DNA of 29,443 nucleotides from a virus (Duplodnaviria > Heunggongvirae > Uroviricota > Caudoviricetes): the IMG/VR virus record IMGVR_UViG_2609459795_000003. One strand, 5' to 3'. Position 1 is the stretch's first letter. Every line of letters starts with the position of its first letter. Position numbers and translations under genes: made by a program. Below, one piece after another: positions 17,783-21,847 of the stretch. The notes beneath the pieces are model-generated. The model made no database searches. It saw only the letters and a list, made by a program, of their open reading frames with translations, and was not told where the DNA came from.

Positions 17783-17819
17783 TCCTGGTTAAATTTCATT
17801 TTTCGCGGGTATAAAAAAA

Positions 17820-17860
17820 CGATGGGGCGGGCAGTCCGGAAGGCGCGCGGTTGCAAAGAT
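17820..17860. other. Candidate cos (cohesive end) region
   Basis: GC-rich block GATGGGGCGGGCAGTCCGGAAGGCGCGCGG preceded by an A-run, in the HNH-to-terminase intergenic gap; GGGGCGG resembles the start of the lambda cohesive-end sequence as I recall it. Confidence 0.25.
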
Positions 17861-17899
17861 TCGACCTCCCCCTCCCCTGGCTGATGATGACATCAATTC

Positions 17900-18250
17900 T
17901 CACCTGAACCGCTCACGCGCGGTCTTCACTGCGTGACACGACCAGCACAGACTCTCAAGGTTGCTGTCTTCATCAGTGCCGCCGTGAGCCTTCGCCTTGA
18001 GGTGGTCCACGCAGGACGCTTGCTTCACAACTCCCTGCCGAAGATGGTTCTGACATAACCCTTTGTCGCGCTTTAGTATCCGCTCCCGGATGACTTCCCA
18101 CTTTGTTCCATATCCGCGCTGCTGCCGTGATTGACCTGGCTTGTAGGATTTCCAGCCCTCACCTTTATGATTTTCGCAGTAGCCTGACGGATCTGTAGTG
18201 GTAGAACGGCAGCCGCGAACACGGCAGGCTTTTGGGATTCGTGGCGGCAT
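17900..18250 (-). CDS. HNH endonuclease (terminase-associated)
   Basis: 116-aa ORF with Cys/His pairs (CRVRGC ... CENH ... CVDH ... CWSCH) adjacent to terminase, as in HK97-like cos phages. Confidence 0.75.
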   Translation of the reverse strand: MPPRIPKACRVRGCRSTTTDPSGYCENHKGEGWKSYKPGQSRQQRGYGTKWEVIRERILKRDKGLCQNHLRQGVVKQASCVDHLKAKAHGGTDEDSNLESLCWSCHAVKTARERFR

Positions 18251-18321
18251 ATGGAAAACTCCGGATAGAAATTATGATAGAAACCATGTTATTTAATAGC
18301 GTTTCAATCCGTTAAGTAACA

Positions 18322-18738
18322 ATGGTTATGCTCGTAAAGGACGCCCTGATGACAAATAACTACATGAATGATTTCCTCAAATACTCACAGCCATATGTTC
18401 CAAAGGACTACAATCTTGCAAATGAATTTCATAGACGCCTTATATGCTGGATAAATGATTTTCACCGTGAACTTGAAGAAGAGTATGAGGTAGGAGGACA
18501 ACTAGCTAGCTTTGGTAAAAACATTGAATTTCATTTCACAGACATAAGCTACTGGAATCCATCATTAATTTCTTTCATTGGTACTCTGGAGGATGGCAGT
18601 CCTGTAGAACTTGTTCAGCATGTATCTCAAATAAATGTCCTGCTAATCCGAAAAAAACGCTTATGCTTAGAGACCCCTAAAAGACCGATTGGGTTTGCTG
18701 ATTGGGGTGAATACGACTCCTTTAAAGGAGATAATTGA
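18322..18738 (+). CDS. AT-rich plus-strand moron: hypothetical soluble protein
   Basis: 138-aa ORF, opposite orientation to all flanking phage genes; visibly AT-rich. Likely start is the ATG at 18349 with AAGGA 7 nt upstream. No hydrophobic segments; family not recognised. Confidence 0.55.
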   Translation: MVMLVKDALMTNNYMNDFLKYSQPYVPKDYNLANEFHRRLICWINDFHRELEEEYEVGGQLASFGKNIEFHFTDISYWNPSLISFIGTLEDGSPVELVQHVSQINVLLIRKKRLCLETPKRPIGFADWGEYDSFKGDN

Positions 18739-18745
18739 TAACTTT

Positions 18746-18778
18746 ATTGCGGGCGATAATTGCCCGCAATCTCGTTTG
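18746..18778 (+). terminator. Terminator-like hairpin after the plus-strand moron
   Basis: ATTGCGGGC-GATAATT-GCCCGCAAT (9-bp stem) 8 nt after the stop, followed by CTCGTTTG (weak U-run). Confidence 0.4.
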
Positions 18779-18780
18779 CC

Positions 18781-18999
18781 TCATAACTGGCTAATACAGT
18801 TGCGCTGTACTGCTTTGTTATGTGCCAGAATATCCCGCTTCGTAAGCTTATCCAGCACTTCAATGTCCTGACCTGTGAGATAGATGATTCTTACCCAGTC
18901 ACAGGCCGTGTCCGTTACTTCAGGTTTTGCGGGTAAAGTTTTCGCGCAACTCACGGTCAACATCGTCATCAGGTAGATGATTAACAGTCTGCTGTACAT
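18781..18999 (-). CDS. Putative o-spanin (Rz1-like outer-membrane lipoprotein)
   Basis: 72-aa ORF with signal peptide and lipobox-like LTVSC; two later Cys; overlaps the 3' end of the upstream membrane protein gene in another frame, downstream of the endolysin. Confidence 0.45.
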   Translation of the reverse strand: MYSRLLIIYLMTMLTVSCAKTLPAKPEVTDTACDWVRIIYLTGQDIEVLDKLTKRDILAHNKAVQRNCISQL

Positions 19000-19252
19000 C
19001 CCAGGCTCCTTTTGTTGTCTCTACCCTACGTTCTGCAACGGCTTCAGTAGCAGCTGCACGTTCTTCAGTGCGTTGCTGGTCCGCTTTTGTTTCTGCGATA
19101 CTTGTACCGCGTGATTTACCCAGACCAAAAGCACCTGCAATTGCAGCCAGCACAGCAACAACCAGGCCGATAATCATTTCAAGTCCCATAGTGACCTCAT
19201 ACCAGTGCGGCTTTTGCTTTGGCGTAACGTTCACGGCGGTCTTTAATGCCAT
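18920..19252 (-). CDS. Putative i-spanin (Rz-like)
   Basis: 110-aa ORF (likely starting at an internal Met) with one N-terminal TM segment (MIIGLVVAVLAAIAGAFGL) and a charged, helical C-terminal part; directly after the endolysin. Confidence 0.4.
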   Translation of the reverse strand: MALKTAVNVTPKQKPHWYEVTMGLEMIIGLVVAVLAAIAGAFGLGKSRGTSIAETKADQQRTEERAAATEAVAERRVETTKGAWDVQQTVNHLPDDDVDRELRENFTRKT

Positions 19253-19811
19253 TCTGTCCGCCGTTAATAATCTGCGTTACACGTTCCACGTCACCCGAAT
19301 ACATCAAGCAACCGCGTAACGTGAAGTACCACGCCGCCGAACGGGCCGCATGTCGCTCCTGCGTTAGCAATTCTGGTGTATTGACAAGGTCAAGTTTCAG
19401 CGCCGCACCACATTTGGTGTAGTTCTCACGGCCAGTAATTTGAAGCAGGCCACGACCGCGATATTTCCAGCCGTCACCCTGGCTGTTATTCCCCATGCGG
19501 TCACCGTAAACCAGATTGGCTATTTGCGGCTGGTGAGCGACCTGTTTACCATCGACACGCCCCAGCATTTCGCACTGGTACGGCGTCAGACGCTTACCAA
19601 AGGTTTTCTTCAGCCCTTCAACCGAGTAGTTAAAACTCTCTGCCAGCGAAGTAAATCCTGCAGACTCATGCCCGACTTGTGCAATGAACATGGCCTGATC
19701 ATTAACTGCTGTAATACCAAACTCTTTCATTGCCGCATCAATGTGCGGAAACCAGCGTGCAGAAACATCGGCGCTGATACCAGCCGCCTGCTGAAATTGT
19801 GATTGGTTCAT
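19197..19811 (-). CDS. Endolysin (glycoside hydrolase family 19, chitinase-like)
   Basis: 204-aa ORF after two membrane-protein genes; sequence resembles GH19-type phage endolysins as I recall them (e.g. ...FIAQVGHESAGF..., ...GRGLLQITGRENY...). Confidence 0.7.
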   Translation of the reverse strand: MNQSQFQQAAGISADVSARWFPHIDAAMKEFGITAVNDQAMFIAQVGHESAGFTSLAESFNYSVEGLKKTFGKRLTPYQCEMLGRVDGKQVAHQPQIANLVYGDRMGNNSQGDGWKYRGRGLLQITGRENYTKCGAALKLDLVNTPELLTQERHAARSAAWYFTLRGCLMYSGDVERVTQIINGGQNGIKDRRERYAKAKAALV

Positions 19812-20573: not shown

Positions 20574-21380
20574 CTATTTCTTAATGATGCTATTTAACAT
20601 TTCTAATGCAAAAAGCAACATGGAGCTAATAAAATACAATATAACCGCACTGGCAATCGCTCCAATTATAGCCTGGACACTCCAGTGAAAGTAATTTTTA
20701 CCATTAATAACAAACTTAACACTAGGAAACAAAAAGTCGATAAGCTTAATTATTAATGGAATAGCAAAGCTCCATAAGTTCGAAAACAAAATAAAGATAC
20801 AAATAAATGATAAAGCAAATGCACCATCGATTGATAGTTTTGGCGCCAGTTTTGAGGCTGTCCATAAGCTAAGCAAAAAGCCAACTGTCACACCTGAAAT
20901 CTGGATACTTAACATAGTCCAAGCTGTTCTAAAAAATCTAAATTTATTTTTGCACTTGTTAATTAAATCCTGAATCGTAATCCATAACGAGTCAACCCAC
21001 TCATTATCTTCCGATGCTACAATCATTGTGCTGCTATTTGAATTCCTCTCATCAATTCGTAGCTCCATCCAAGATCCATTCATCCTGTTAGACTGTCGAC
21101 TTTGATAAGTTTCAATAGTAAAAATTATTTGATCAATCCTAGTGGCCTGTCTAAAGTATTTCACAAGCTCACCGATAGAATCAACTTTATACCCCTTACC
21201 ATCGAACAAAATAAAAAAAACACATTGAGCACAAACTTCCCTACTTTCCTTTTGAGCTTGCTCATTCATTTTAACGCAGCGTTCGACAATTGCCGTGCTT
21301 AAGCTAATCAAGCTATCTTCATTTATAGAAACACCTGAAATATTCTTGCTTCTGTAAAAATATGACACTTTCGATTCCAC
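20574..21380 (-). CDS. AT-rich cargo protein: soluble N-terminal domain plus C-terminal 3-4 TM helices, unknown function
   Basis: 268-aa ORF, visibly AT-rich; hydrophobic segments in the last ~110 aa. Track start is GTG at 21380 with no convincing RBS, so the true start is uncertain. Confidence 0.55.
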   Translation of the reverse strand: MESKVSYFYRSKNISGVSINEDSLISLSTAIVERCVKMNEQAQKESREVCAQCVFFILFDGKGYKVDSIGELVKYFRQATRIDQIIFTIETYQSRQSNRMNGSWMELRIDERNSNSSTMIVASEDNEWVDSLWITIQDLINKCKNKFRFFRTAWTMLSIQISGVTVGFLLSLWTASKLAPKLSIDGAFALSFICIFILFSNLWSFAIPLIIKLIDFLFPSVKFVINGKNYFHWSVQAIIGAIASAVILYFISSMLLFALEMLNSIIKK

Positions 21381-21511
21381 TCCGCACCAGTCTCGATTTA
21401 GCGCAGGTTAACATAACCACTTCATTGGTAGAAGAAAAGAACTCTTCTTGTCAGAAAGCTACTGTGATATCCCTAAACCTGCAGATGATACAGAACAAAA
21501 TTTAAGCATCA

Positions 21512-21563
21512 ATTGTAGGCGATTTTAAATTCACTTTACAGTTTAGGCTGCCAATTGGCAGCC
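21512..21563 (-). promoter_or_regulatory. Perfect 18-bp palindrome GGCTGCCAATTGGCAGCC adjacent to a candidate promoter for the 268-aa gene
   Basis: Palindrome at 21546-21563; on the minus strand it is followed after 5 nt by TGTAAA (21535-21540), a 17-nt spacer and TACAAT (21512-21517). Confidence 0.4.
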
Positions 21564-21577
21564 GATTGAAGCAGAAA

Positions 21578-21847
21578 TCAATGAGTGCTCATCGATGAAT
21601 TTTTTTCAGCGCCAATCTCACTCAAAAAAGCAAAACCTTTTGACGTTATCTCATTAGCAATCAATCCACCTTCGGCAGATTTGCTTCGTATAACATCGAT
21701 AAAACCTATATCAGCAAGATCTGAAATAGCAAAGTTAACCTCTTTTGCTGAGAGATGAGGTAATGATGCAGCCTGAATTCTAGAATCCTTTGGCTGCAAT
21801 TCATTCACTCGACGTAGTATTTCAAGATGGATAGAGGTCAGTTTCAT
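21578..21847 (-). CDS. AT-rich cargo protein: small putative winged-helix/HTH protein
   Basis: 89-aa ORF with strong RBS (AGGAG, 6-nt spacing) and an upstream extended -10; alternating hydrophobic/charged pattern consistent with a small DNA-binding fold (inference). Confidence 0.5.
   Translation of the reverse strand: MKLTSIHLEILRRVNELQPKDSRIQAASLPHLSAKEVNFAISDLADIGFIDVIRSKSAEGGLIANEITSKGFAFLSEIGAEKNSSMSTH

What the first reader, a model, noticed from the sequence alone, without database searches (positions are those of the whole stretch)
18251..18778. Plus-strand AT-rich moron antisense to the late operon, between HNH/terminase and the lysis genes
The 18322-18738 gene (probable start 18349 with AAGGA RBS) is the only complete gene in the late region on the plus strand. 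It is visibly AT-rich and is followed by a 9-bp-stem hairpin (18746-18770). Convergent orientation means it cannot be part of the Q-dependent late transcript and is most plausibly expressed from its own promoter in the lysogen, as lysogenic-conversion or exclusion genes typically are. The encoded soluble 129-138-aa protein is not recognisable to me. I could not identify a convincing promoter by eye.
Basis: partly seen in the sequence, partly recalled or inferred. Interest (0 to 1): 0.6.

Follow-up and report, generated by a model that had tools for sequence, protein, structure and literature searches.

The report
Antisense prophage cargo gene, DUF6173 family
A small AT-rich gene sits backwards between the lysis and DNA-packaging genes of an E. 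coli prophage; it is a swappable cargo gene ("moron") from the widespread, uncharacterised DUF6173 family, probably used while the phage is dormant, so it is an ordinary kind of feature whose protein function is still unknown.

Summary
A 129-aa ORF (18349-18738, +; AAGGA Shine-Dalgarno 7 nt upstream) has 37% GC against about 55% in the flanks. It is the only plus-strand gene in the late region. A stable hairpin (18746-18770) lies between its stop codon and the convergent spanin stop codon.

Related E. coli prophages share the backbone up to the HNH start codon (18250) and again from about 18794. In between, eight sampled relatives carry six other, unrelated cargos. The gene is in 33 of 5426 complete E. 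coli genomes.

The protein belongs to Pfam DUF6173, with about 1470 clusters at 50% identity across many phyla and no published function. The same gene sits antisense in the same lysis-to-terminase slot of unrelated Klebsiella and Citrobacter lambdoid prophages. It is antisense in Serratia, Clostridioides, Clostridia and Paenibacillus phages. It lies 2 nt after a CI-like repressor gene in a Mu-like phage and directly after an integrase in another. It also occurs on plasmids, in a Tn3 transposon and in defence islands.

The AlphaFold model is an acidic, soluble Sm/SH3-like small beta-barrel with no informative structural match.

Verdict: a genuine moron, probably expressed in the lysogen. Its function is unknown; exclusion or defence is the best guess. 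No convincing promoter was found.

The parts
18251..18793 (+). Replaceable cargo cassette (moron) in the slot between the HNH endonuclease gene and the spanin genes
   Evidence: Homology with related prophages ends at 18202-18252 on the left. It resumes at 18794 in L003, 18851 in L006, and about 19240 in L004 and L005. The slot holds six other cargo types in eight sampled relatives. GC is about 0.39 against 0.55 in the flanks. No flanking direct or inverted repeats delimit the cassette.
18251..18348 (+). Upstream non-coding region, with a weak sigma-70 candidate (-35 ATGGAA 18251-18256, 16-nt spacer, -10 TATGAT 18273-18278) and a Shine-Dalgarno AAGGA at 18337-18341
   Evidence: The candidate matches 8 of 12 consensus positions and lies 70 nt from the ATG. 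The standard scan calls no promoter here. Klebsiella-type cassettes have a much better TTGAAA-16-TATTAT at a similar distance of 76-77 nt. The SD spacing of 7 nt was read from the sequence.
18349..18738 (+). DUF6173-family gene: 129 aa, soluble, acidic (pI 5.1); RefSeq WP_000184049.1
   Evidence: Pfam PF19670 E = 3.8e-21, 75.8 bits against a cut-off of 27. phrog_3306, unknown function. PGAP annotation. 281 homologue clusters at 90% identity and 1472 at 50%. AF2 model pLDDT 84.8: disordered 1-21, helix 23-41, five strands 46-103, helix 119-127. No transmembrane segment.
18746..18770 (.). GC-rich hairpin between the two convergent stop codons; possible bidirectional terminator or RNA-stabilising stem without a U-tract
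   Evidence: Arms 18746-18757 and 18759-18770, 92% complementary. The fold is -18 kcal/mol with z about -4 on both strands. The terminator scan does not call it. Different but equally placed hairpins follow most of the homologous cassettes examined in other enterobacterial phages, 9 of 12.
17900..18250 (-). Left flank: HNH endonuclease gene of the HK97-type packaging module (conserved backbone)
   Evidence: Pfam HNH E = 8.3e-9 and phrog_144 E = 1e-38. It matches in 459 E. coli genomes.
18781..19252 (-). Right flank: overlapping Rz1-like and Rz-like spanin genes at the end of the lysis cassette
   Evidence: phrog_1275 (Rz-like spanin) E = 9.5e-29 and phrog_1026 E = 6.5e-32. RefSeq annotates them at window 18781-18963 and 18920-19189.

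Best explanation
The segment 18251-18793 is a moron: a self-contained cargo cassette dropped into the hypervariable slot between the lysis cassette and the HNH/terminase packaging module of an e14/SfII-like prophage integrated at icd. It is oriented against the Q-dependent late transcript.

It encodes one soluble, acidic 129-aa protein of the DUF6173 family. The model shows an N-terminal helix packed on a five-stranded Sm/SH3-like small beta-barrel, followed by a conserved PKRPIGF segment and a C-terminal helix.

**Shown**
- The cassette boundaries.
- The variability of the slot.
- Strong purifying selection on the protein.
- Recurrent capture of the same gene, antisense, in the same slot of unrelated lambdoid phages.
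- Co-orientation of the gene with repressor or integrase genes in other temperate phages.

**Inferred**
- The gene is transcribed on its own in the lysogen. When late transcription runs through it from the opposite side, its expression is probably damped by transcriptional interference.
- The hairpin ends or stabilises its transcript before that transcript becomes antisense to the spanin genes.

**Most likely function (inference; about 0.35 within this explanation)**
A non-enzymatic binding protein that benefits the dormant element in conflicts with other mobile elements, that is, superinfection exclusion or defence. It would act by binding a conserved protein target rather than nucleic acid, because the family is acidic.

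The moron and independent-unit part is about 0.85 likely. The lysogen-expression part is about 0.65.
For: **Cassette and slot**
- Homology breakpoints lie at 18250-18252 and 18794.
- There are seven cargo types in all among nine sampled backbones, and the slot is never empty.
- The other cargos have no Pfam family above its cut-off, and the one tested (L006) is unrelated to DUF6173.
- The gene is in 33 of 5426 E. coli genomes as a single allele.
- GC is 0.37 against 0.55 in the flanks.

**Own signals**
- A Shine-Dalgarno sequence and a 3' hairpin are present here and in most of the homologous cassettes examined.
- The Klebsiella-type cassettes have a good promoter, TTGAAA-16-TATTAT.

**Same slot, antisense, in unrelated phages**
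- Klebsiella L011-L014.
- One identical Citrobacter protein in three lambdoid backbones that differ in portal, lysis or antiterminator genes, L156-L158.

**Ties to lysogeny modules**
- L140 is Mu-like: the MuA transposase gene is divergent from a CI-like repressor gene (HTH_3 + Peptidase_S24), whose stop codon is 2 nt before the DUF6173 ATG.
- L136: integrase followed by DUF6173 on the same strand.
- Phage C5a: the gene is convergent with the integrase gene.
- phiCDKH02 and a Serratia prophage: an antisense island inside early operons, pointing the same way as the repressor or integrase genes.
- A Paenibacillus phage-plasmid and Clostridia phages: the gene is antisense to its neighbours.

**Orientation statistic**
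- The gene opposes both neighbours in 19 of 39 dereplicated viral loci, against 47 of 372 for other genes in the same loci.
- It is co-directional with both neighbours in 3 of 39, against 64% for other genes. Fisher p = 4e-7.

**Temperate bias**
- Only 2 distinct phages among 50,697 phage records carry it, and both are temperate.
- It was found on 59 IMG/VR contigs, many of them prophage-like.

**Real, constrained protein**
- dS is saturated with dN 0.19-0.38.
- Identity is 45-60% across phyla.
- pI is 5.1, with a family median of 5.3.

**Defence and mobile-element neighbourhoods**
- Pycsar.
- A type IIG restriction-modification gene overlapping by 20 nt.
- An OLD nuclease gene immediately upstream.
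- DUF4145 and a Cas2-like gene.
- Type I restriction-modification genes.
Against: - No convincing promoter exists in this window: the best candidate matches 8 of 12 positions and the scan calls nothing.
- The hairpin lacks a U-tract and is not called as an intrinsic terminator.
- No transcript data were available.
- The protein matches no PADLOC or NCBIfam model. It has no solved or annotated structural relative. It appears in no paper in the library. The exclusion or defence role therefore rests only on position, orientation and neighbourhood.
- In 73 species' chromosomes the gene is often co-directional with ordinary neighbours: both flanks on the same strand in 32 of 73.
- No recurrent partner gene was found.
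- The viral loci in the orientation statistic are not phylogenetically independent, and my ORF calling was crude.
Confidence: 0.6

Rival explanations
1. Counter-defence protein. DUF6173 would be a small sponge or inhibitor that mobile elements use to neutralise a host immune system. It would be expressed from its own promoter early after entry rather than in the lysogen.
For: - It is small, acidic, highly conserved across phyla and stand-alone, like known phage inhibitors and sponges (my own knowledge of Acb2 and Tad-type proteins).
- It is carried by phages, plasmids and a Tn3 transposon alike.
- It lies beside Pycsar, restriction-modification and OLD genes in several genomes.
Against: - It is nearly absent from sequenced phage isolates: 2 temperate phages among 50,697 records, and none virulent.
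- It is oriented against early and late lytic operons, and with repressor or integrase genes.
- No similarity to any known anti-defence fold appeared in the PDB or BFVD searches.
Confidence: 0.12
2. Orphan immunity protein. The prophage would give its host protection against an interbacterial toxin (T6SS, CDI or LXG type) by binding the toxin domain.
For: - On Acinetobacter plasmid pM164-3.2 the gene directly follows TPR and SMI1/KNR4 genes on the same strand. SMI1/KNR4 is a known immunity family (my own knowledge).
- The Klebsiella prophage that carries DUF6173 also carries a plus-strand Rap1a gene, a T6SS immunity family.
- Small acidic soluble proteins scattered as singletons are typical of orphan immunity genes (my own knowledge).
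Against: - In 142 immediate neighbours from 73 species, no toxin-type family (RHS, LXG, haemagglutinin) was recurrent.
- None of the tightly coupled upstream genes examined is a polymorphic toxin.
- Conservation of 45-60% identity across phyla is unusually high for immunity proteins, which normally diversify.
Confidence: 0.1
3. Accessory module of lysogeny control. DUF6173 would be an oligomerisation or sensor domain that works with XRE/CI-type repressors. As a stand-alone protein it would modulate repressor activity or prophage induction.
For: - Two natural fusions join an N-terminal HTH_3 domain, through a repeat linker, to a C-terminal DUF6173 domain (P0142, 387 aa; P0149, 464 aa).
- In a Mu-like phage the gene is in a tight operon with a CI-like repressor gene.
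- In phiCDKH02 it lies among HTH regulator genes.
- Sm-like barrels commonly form rings (my own knowledge; fold).
Against: - The fusions are a small clade among the top 150 representatives.
- HTH genes are not recurrent neighbours in 73 species.
- In the window, the gene lies about 9 kb from the immunity region, on the opposite side of the late genes.
- It is also carried by a transposon and small plasmids that have no phage repressor.
Confidence: 0.13
4. No current function in this phage: a hitch-hiking or decaying insert, silenced because it is AT-rich, and kept only because the slot tolerates extra DNA.
For: - No convincing promoter is present.
- The gene persists in degraded prophage remnants, such as the one in APEC O78, along with other leftover genes.
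- It is rare in E. coli, in 0.6% of genomes.
Against: - The ORF is intact and at least 99% identical in all 33 genomes, with only one truncated copy.
- The family is under strong purifying selection.
- The same gene has been captured repeatedly, always in the same orientation, by unrelated phages.
Confidence: 0.05

Closest known systems
Phage lambda bor (lysogen-expressed gene just downstream of Rz, transcribed against the late operon); recalled from my own knowledge, not tested here
   Same: - It occupies the same slot, after the spanin genes and before the packaging genes.
- It has the same antisense orientation.
- It is the same kind of unit: a single small gene that is not needed for lytic growth.
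   Different: Bor is a secreted lipoprotein with a signal peptide and lipobox. The DUF6173 protein has no hydrophobic segment: the maximum 19-residue Kyte-Doolittle mean is 0.74, and there is no N-terminal Cys. There is no sequence relationship, since the Pfam scan returns DUF6173 only.
Morons as defined for HK97/HK022 and P22-like phages (definition as quoted in PMC2629481)
   Same: - It is an insert in an operon that is otherwise syntenic among relatives.
- The slot is variable in content and has no role in morphogenesis or lysis.
- Its base composition differs from the backbone.
- It has its own translation signals and a 3' hairpin.
   Different: The classical picture includes a recognisable promoter and a factor-independent terminator. 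Here the promoter is only a weak candidate and the hairpin lacks a U-tract.
Lambda rexA/rexB: exclusion genes co-transcribed with the cI repressor gene
   Same: In the Mu-like contig L140 the DUF6173 gene lies 2 nt downstream of a CI-like repressor gene. This is the arrangement PMC2629481 uses to argue for prophage expression.
   Different: In the window the gene is not near the repressor gene. RexB is a membrane protein and Rex is a two-protein system, whereas DUF6173 is one soluble protein. No exclusion phenotype is known for it.
Sm / Hfq / SH3-like small beta-barrels (Pelota N-domain, BirA C-domain, Lsm, Hfq, EF-P domain I, WYL)
   Different: - There is no sequence-profile relationship: hhalign gives 0.4% probability against Hfq, and there is no LSM or Hfq Pfam hit.
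- The protein is acidic rather than basic.
- It has an extra conserved PKRPIGF segment and a C-terminal helix.
P2 Old / OLD-family nucleases (prophage-encoded exclusion)
   Same: In one marine gammaproteobacterial lineage, a 652-aa OLD-type protein (AAA_15 + TOPRIM) is encoded immediately upstream of DUF6173 on the same strand. The pair moves together.
   Different: This is a single lineage at 90% identity or more. In most copies the OLD gene is truncated next to a Tn3 transposase gene. The window has no OLD gene, and DUF6173 itself has no nuclease or ATPase motif.

Membership tests
Moron (independently expressed insert in a phage operon) | Present as an insert between genes that belong to one syntenic operon in related phages; content of the site varies | tested here: met
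   The breakpoints are at 18250-18252 and 18794. Seven cargo types occur in nine backbones. The definition is from PMC2629481.
Moron (independently expressed insert in a phage operon) | Own promoter | tested here: inconclusive
   Only an 8-of-12 candidate at 18251-18278 was found, and the scan calls none. Klebsiella-type cassettes have a 10-of-12 promoter.
Moron (independently expressed insert in a phage operon) | Own factor-independent terminator | tested here: inconclusive
   A stable hairpin lies at 18746-18770 (-18 kcal/mol, z = -4), but it has no U-tract and the scan does not call it. Analogous hairpins follow most homologous cassettes examined.
Moron (independently expressed insert in a phage operon) | Base composition different from the surrounding phage genome | tested here: met
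   GC is 0.37-0.40 against 0.54-0.59 in the flanks.
Moron (independently expressed insert in a phage operon) | Expressed from the prophage | not testable with these tools
   There is only indirect support: an operon with a CI-like repressor gene in L140, and the orientation bias.
Pfam PF19670 (DUF6173) | Score above the curated gathering threshold over most of the model | tested here: met
   The score is 75.8 bits against a cut-off of 27, covering model positions 16-101 of 102. RefSeq names the protein a DUF6173 family protein.
Sm / Hfq (LSM) family | N-terminal helix plus five-stranded bent beta-sheet | tested here: inconclusive
Sm / Hfq (LSM) family | Sequence-profile match (Sm1/Sm2 motifs) | tested here: not met
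   hhalign against an Hfq alignment gives 0.4% probability. There is no LSM or Hfq Pfam hit at E <= 0.1.
Known anti-phage defence systems (PADLOC-DB 2.0) | Match to a defence-protein HMM | tested here: not met
   No families matched at E <= 1.
Bor-type lysogenic-conversion lipoprotein | Signal peptide with lipobox cysteine | tested here: not met
   The N-terminus MTNNYMNDFLKYSQPYVPKD is hydrophilic. The maximum 19-residue hydropathy is 0.74, and the first Cys is at residue 33.
Toxin-antitoxin or toxin-immunity pair | Conserved adjacent partner gene | tested here: not met
   There is no recurrent neighbour across 73 species or 59 viral contigs. The only repeated pair, OLD + DUF6173, is one lineage.

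The most novel reading that the evidence does not exclude
DUF6173 is a previously unrecognised, phylum-spanning, single-protein determinant that temperate phages, plasmids and transposons express in the carrier state to exclude or disarm competing mobile elements. It would use an Sm-like barrel to bind a universally conserved target. The repressor-linked and HTH-fused forms, and the OLD-nuclease-linked form, would be variants of one mechanism.
Probability: 0.25. Interest if true: 0.65.

Novelty: new member of a known kind. Interest (0 to 1): 0.38.

Why it matters
For this window the result is mainly tidy annotation. It gives a well-delimited moron in a documented hot spot and shows that the lysis-to-packaging junction of e14/SfII-like prophages is a cargo exchange site.

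The wider lead is the family. DUF6173 has about 1470 sequence clusters, is 45-60% identical across phyla, and has no literature. In temperate phages it is almost always placed against the lytic operons or next to repressor or integrase genes.

That pattern makes it a cheap, well-motivated candidate for prophage-encoded exclusion or defence screens, or for lysogeny-control studies. The E. coli allele is easy to test.

Tried and rejected
**Function by homology**
- PADLOC and NCBIfam gave nothing.
- PDB sequence and profile searches gave nothing.
- Foldseek against PDB and against BFVD gave no hit at E <= 0.001.
- The afdb50 library was unavailable.

**Hfq membership.** I noticed that QHVSQI resembles the Hfq YKHAI motif, but the profile-profile comparison gave 0.4% probability, so I dropped the idea.

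**Partner gene**
- All-against-all clustering of neighbours found no conserved partner.
- Pfam, PADLOC and PHROG scans of 142 immediate neighbours found none either.
- The OLD + DUF6173 pair turned out to be one lineage at 90% identity or more.

**RNA element.** Rfam gave no match at E <= 1 in 17800-19300.

**Mobility signature.** No flanking direct or inverted repeats bound the cassette.

**Promoter**
- The only consensus match in 17800-19300 is CTGACA-18-TAGTAT at 18050-18079, inside the HNH gene. One site is at or below chance expectation (2.0 in shuffles).
- Upstream regions of homologous cassettes are not alignable with the window; DNA similarity is confined to the CDS.

**dN/dS.** A ratio could not be computed because dS is saturated.

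**Other slot cargos.** They are not cryptic DUF6173 relatives.

**Literature.** DUF6173, PF19670, WP_000184049 and phrog_3306 each returned no papers.
Full report
**1. What is in the sequence**

The ORF 18322-18738 on the plus strand is real. RefSeq annotates the identical DNA from the ATG at 18349, giving 129 aa (WP_000184049.1, "DUF6173 family protein"). The closest non-identical homologue (82% identity, 128 aa) begins at the equivalent position. AAGGA at 18337-18341 lies 7 nt upstream of this ATG (read).

The CDS is 37% GC. Sliding windows give 0.39-0.40 over 18200-18799, against 0.54-0.59 over the packaging genes to the left.

The 42 nt between this gene's stop codon (18738) and the convergent stop codon of the Rz1-like spanin gene (18781) contain an inverted repeat, 18746-18757 and 18759-18770. 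It folds at -18 kcal/mol with z about -4 on either strand. It has no U-tract, and the terminator scan does not call it.

No sigma-70 promoter is called upstream. My own scan finds only ATGGAA-16-TATGAT at 18251-18278, matching 8 of 12 positions.

- Left: HNH endonuclease (17900-18250, -), P27-type small terminase and large terminase.
- Right: Rz1/Rz-like spanins, GH19 endolysin and two holins.

In the RefSeq annotation of an identical prophage, integrated next to icd in E. coli AMSHJX01, every gene from the baseplate genes to the Q antiterminator is on the minus strand except this one.

**2. It is a replaceable cassette in a hypervariable slot**

BLAST of the window against related prophages shows that homology ends at the HNH start codon (18250-18252; 18202 in L003). 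It resumes at 18794 in the relative with the same spanins (L003), and further right in relatives with other spanins. It includes the hairpin.

Eight sampled relatives with the same portal, terminase, HNH, lysis and Q backbone carry six other cargos in this slot:
- a 187-aa plus a 76-aa ORF (minus strand);
- a 65-aa plus a 91-aa ORF (minus strand);
- a 93-aa ORF (plus strand);
- a 133-aa ORF (plus strand);
- a Gp49-family gene plus a KilA-N gene (minus strand);
- a Rha-family regulator gene (minus strand).

None of the unnamed cargos has a Pfam family above its cut-off, and the 133-aa one is not a hidden DUF6173 relative.

The DUF6173 gene occurs in 33 of 5426 complete E. coli genomes, as one allele at 99% identity or more. 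The neighbouring HNH gene matches in 459 genomes. At least 10 of the 33 genomes carry the gene within the intact 9-kb late region. Others, such as APEC O78, carry it in a remnant that has lost the structural genes.

This meets the working definition of a moron quoted in PMC2629481: an insert, usually independently expressed, seen when an operon is compared across related phages.

**3. What the protein is**

Pfam places it in PF19670 (DUF6173) at 75.8 bits against a cut-off of 27. PHROGs places it in phrog_3306, of unknown function. It matches nothing in PADLOC or NCBIfam. No paper in the library mentions the family, the accession or the phrog.

The family is sizeable and unusually conserved:
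- 281 clusters at 90% identity in the word-indexed search.
- 1472 clusters at 50% identity in the exhaustive profile search.
- 45-60% identity to the E. coli protein in Acidobacteriota, Bacillota, Cyanobacteria, Planctomycetota, Bacteroidota and others.
- 34 invariant positions among 34 diverse proteobacterial members, including the motifs NxAxEFxxRxxxWxNxFH, WNPSLIxF, QHxxQI and PIGF.
- Against enterobacterial homologues, synonymous sites are saturated while dN is 0.19-0.38.

The AlphaFold model (mean pLDDT 84.8) has these elements:
- a disordered residue 1-21 tail;
- a helix at 23-41;
- five strands between 46 and 103;
- a well-ordered non-regular segment carrying PKRPIGF;
- a helix at 119-127.

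Structural searches were uninformative:
- Foldseek finds nothing significant in the PDB or in BFVD.
- I tested the tempting Hfq resemblance with a profile-profile comparison, which gave 0.4% probability. The similarity is therefore at fold level only.

The protein is acidic (pI 5.1; family median 5.3; 84% of members below 6) and has no hydrophobic segment. This argues against a membrane or lipoprotein role. By inference it also argues against an Hfq-like nucleic-acid-binding role.

The domain is always C-terminal, and the N-terminal tails vary. Two representatives fuse it, through a repeat linker, to an N-terminal HTH_3 (XRE/Cro-type) domain.

**4. Where the family lives**

This was the most informative line of evidence.

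(a) The same slot in unrelated phages.
- A Klebsiella homologue (74% identity) lies antisense between the spanin gene and the small-terminase gene of a lambdoid prophage. That prophage's lysis and packaging genes belong to different Pfam families from those of the window.
- One identical Citrobacter protein lies antisense in that slot in three backbones that differ in endolysin, holin, antiterminator or portal genes.
- DNA similarity between these cassettes and the window is confined to the coding sequence.
- Each cassette has its own Shine-Dalgarno sequence, most of the twelve examined have a 3' hairpin, and the Klebsiella type has a good promoter, TTGAAA-16-TATTAT, 76-77 nt upstream.

(b) Other temperate phages.
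- Antisense island inside early or replication genes, pointing the same way as the integrase or repressor genes: a Serratia prophage and C. difficile phage phiCDKH02.
- Antisense beside tape-measure-size ORFs (934-1113 aa, no Pfam hit) in Clostridia phages.
- Antisense in a Paenibacillus phage-plasmid.
- Convergent with the integrase gene in the P2-like Pseudoalteromonas phage C5a.
- Directly after the integrase gene on the same strand in L136.
- In the Mu-like contig L140, 2 nt after the stop codon of a CI-like repressor gene (HTH_3 + Peptidase_S24) that is divergent from the MuA transposase gene. This is the rexAB-like arrangement normally taken to indicate prophage expression.

(c) Orientation statistic. 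In 39 dereplicated IMG/VR loci the gene opposes both neighbours in 19 (49%), against 47 of 372 (12.6%) for the other genes in the same loci. It is co-directional with both neighbours in only 3, against 64% for other genes. Fisher p = 4e-7. The loci are not fully independent and my ORF calls were crude.

(d) Temperate bias. Only two distinct phages among 50,697 phage records carry the gene, and both are temperate.

(e) Other mobile elements.
- Small Acinetobacter plasmids. In one the gene follows TPR and SMI1/KNR4 genes; in another it lies beside the BrnT/BrnA genes.
- A marine Tn3-family element in which an OLD-nuclease gene plus DUF6173 form one mobile module. This is a single lineage.
- An integrase-bounded island with Cas2-like and DUF4145 genes.
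- A position beside Pycsar in Pseudomonas oryzihabitans.
- A 20-nt overlap with a type IIG restriction-modification gene.
- Toxin-antitoxin-rich arrays.

(f) No partner. No gene recurs next to it across 73 species. In chromosomes it is often co-directional with ordinary neighbours.

**5. How it most likely works**

Shown:
- an autonomous, mobile, single-gene cassette;
- a constrained soluble protein;
- consistent placement against lytic operons and with lysogeny genes.

Inferred:
- It is transcribed in the lysogen from a weak or unrecognised promoter. AT-rich DNA may also be subject to H-NS silencing (my own knowledge).
- Its transcript ends or is stabilised at the hairpin before it becomes antisense to the spanin genes.
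- Q-antiterminated late transcription from the other side would oppose its expression during lytic growth.

For function I commit, at modest confidence, to a non-enzymatic binding protein serving the dormant element in conflicts between mobile elements (exclusion or defence). The reasons are its positions, its defence-island neighbours, its absence from virulent phages and its acidic small-barrel architecture.

The rivals each have specific support and specific counter-evidence, listed in the rival explanations:
- counter-defence sponge;
- orphan immunity protein;
- repressor-associated module;
- functionless passenger.

**6. Comparison with known things, and novelty**

The closest analogue in position and orientation is lambda bor (my own knowledge), but DUF6173 is not a lipoprotein. 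The cassette meets the comparative and compositional criteria for a moron, and is inconclusive on the promoter and terminator criteria. The protein is a clear member of DUF6173 and is not a member of the Hfq/LSM family or of any PADLOC family.

This is a new, well-documented member of a known kind of feature. The gene itself is already catalogued as a DUF. The interest lies in the family-level pattern, which makes DUF6173 a reasonable candidate for functional screens. I score overall interest at 0.38.

Noticed in passing
window 20574-21847 (-): There is a second AT-rich stretch (GC 0.34-0.38) between the Q antiterminator gene and the holin genes, on the late strand. It holds a 268-aa ORF (phrog_30208, unknown function, no Pfam hit, hydrophobic C-terminal half) and an 89-aa ORF with a weak DUF2513 match. 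Relatives carry different genes here (an 85-aa or a 213-aa ORF), so this looks like a second cargo slot.
   Followed up: partly
L023 5883-8330; L162 5257-6384; L163-L165: In marine Gammaproteobacteria (Methylophaga and metagenomes), a 652-aa OLD-family gene (AAA_15 + TOPRIM) is followed on the same strand by DUF6173. In most copies only the TOPRIM part of the OLD gene (from residue 436) remains, next to a Tn3 transposase gene. The downstream flanks differ, so the module is mobile.
   Followed up: partly
P0142 (= L061, Chlorobiaceae MAG), P0149, P0156: These are natural fusions of an N-terminal HTH_3 (XRE-type) DNA-binding domain, a long alanine/asparagine-rich repeat linker and a C-terminal DUF6173 domain.
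   Followed up: partly
L011-L014 1046-1390 (+): The Klebsiella prophage that carries the DUF6173 homologue has a second plus-strand gene among its minus-strand head genes. This 114-aa gene encodes a Rap1a (T6SS immunity family) protein.
   Followed up: no
L007-L010 (Pseudomonas oryzihabitans), L037 (Chloracidobacterium): In P. oryzihabitans, DUF6173 lies convergent with a Pycsar pair (PycC cyclase + PycTM) beside a resolvase gene. In L037 it overlaps the end of a 308-aa ORF that has a weak nucleotide-cyclase match. This gives two separate associations with cyclase genes.
   Followed up: partly
L170 254-1932 (Acinetobacter plasmid pM164-3.2): TPR, SMI1/KNR4 and DUF6173 genes lie in tandem on a 7.7-kb Rep_3 plasmid. 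This looks like an array of immunity-type genes.
   Followed up: no
L001 18360-20000 (E. coli APEC O78, NC_020163.1): In many of the 33 E. coli carriers the prophage is a remnant. The HNH gene is truncated and joined to tail-fibre fragments, and all head and tail genes are lost. DUF6173, the lysis genes and some early genes remain, and an IS2 lies nearby. Strain TW14425 has a truncated DUF6173 copy.
   Followed up: partly
window 18050-18079 (+): The only sigma-70-like site on the plus strand in 17800-19300 (CTGACA-18-TAGTAT, 9 of 12) lies inside the HNH gene, antisense to it and 270 nt upstream of the DUF6173 start. One site is no more than chance expectation.
   Followed up: no
L166-L169: In one marine lineage, DUF6173 sits in a co-directional array of short ORFs that includes several ParE/Phd-type toxin-antitoxin pairs. 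The layout resembles a chromosomal integron cassette array. I did not search for attC sites.
   Followed up: no
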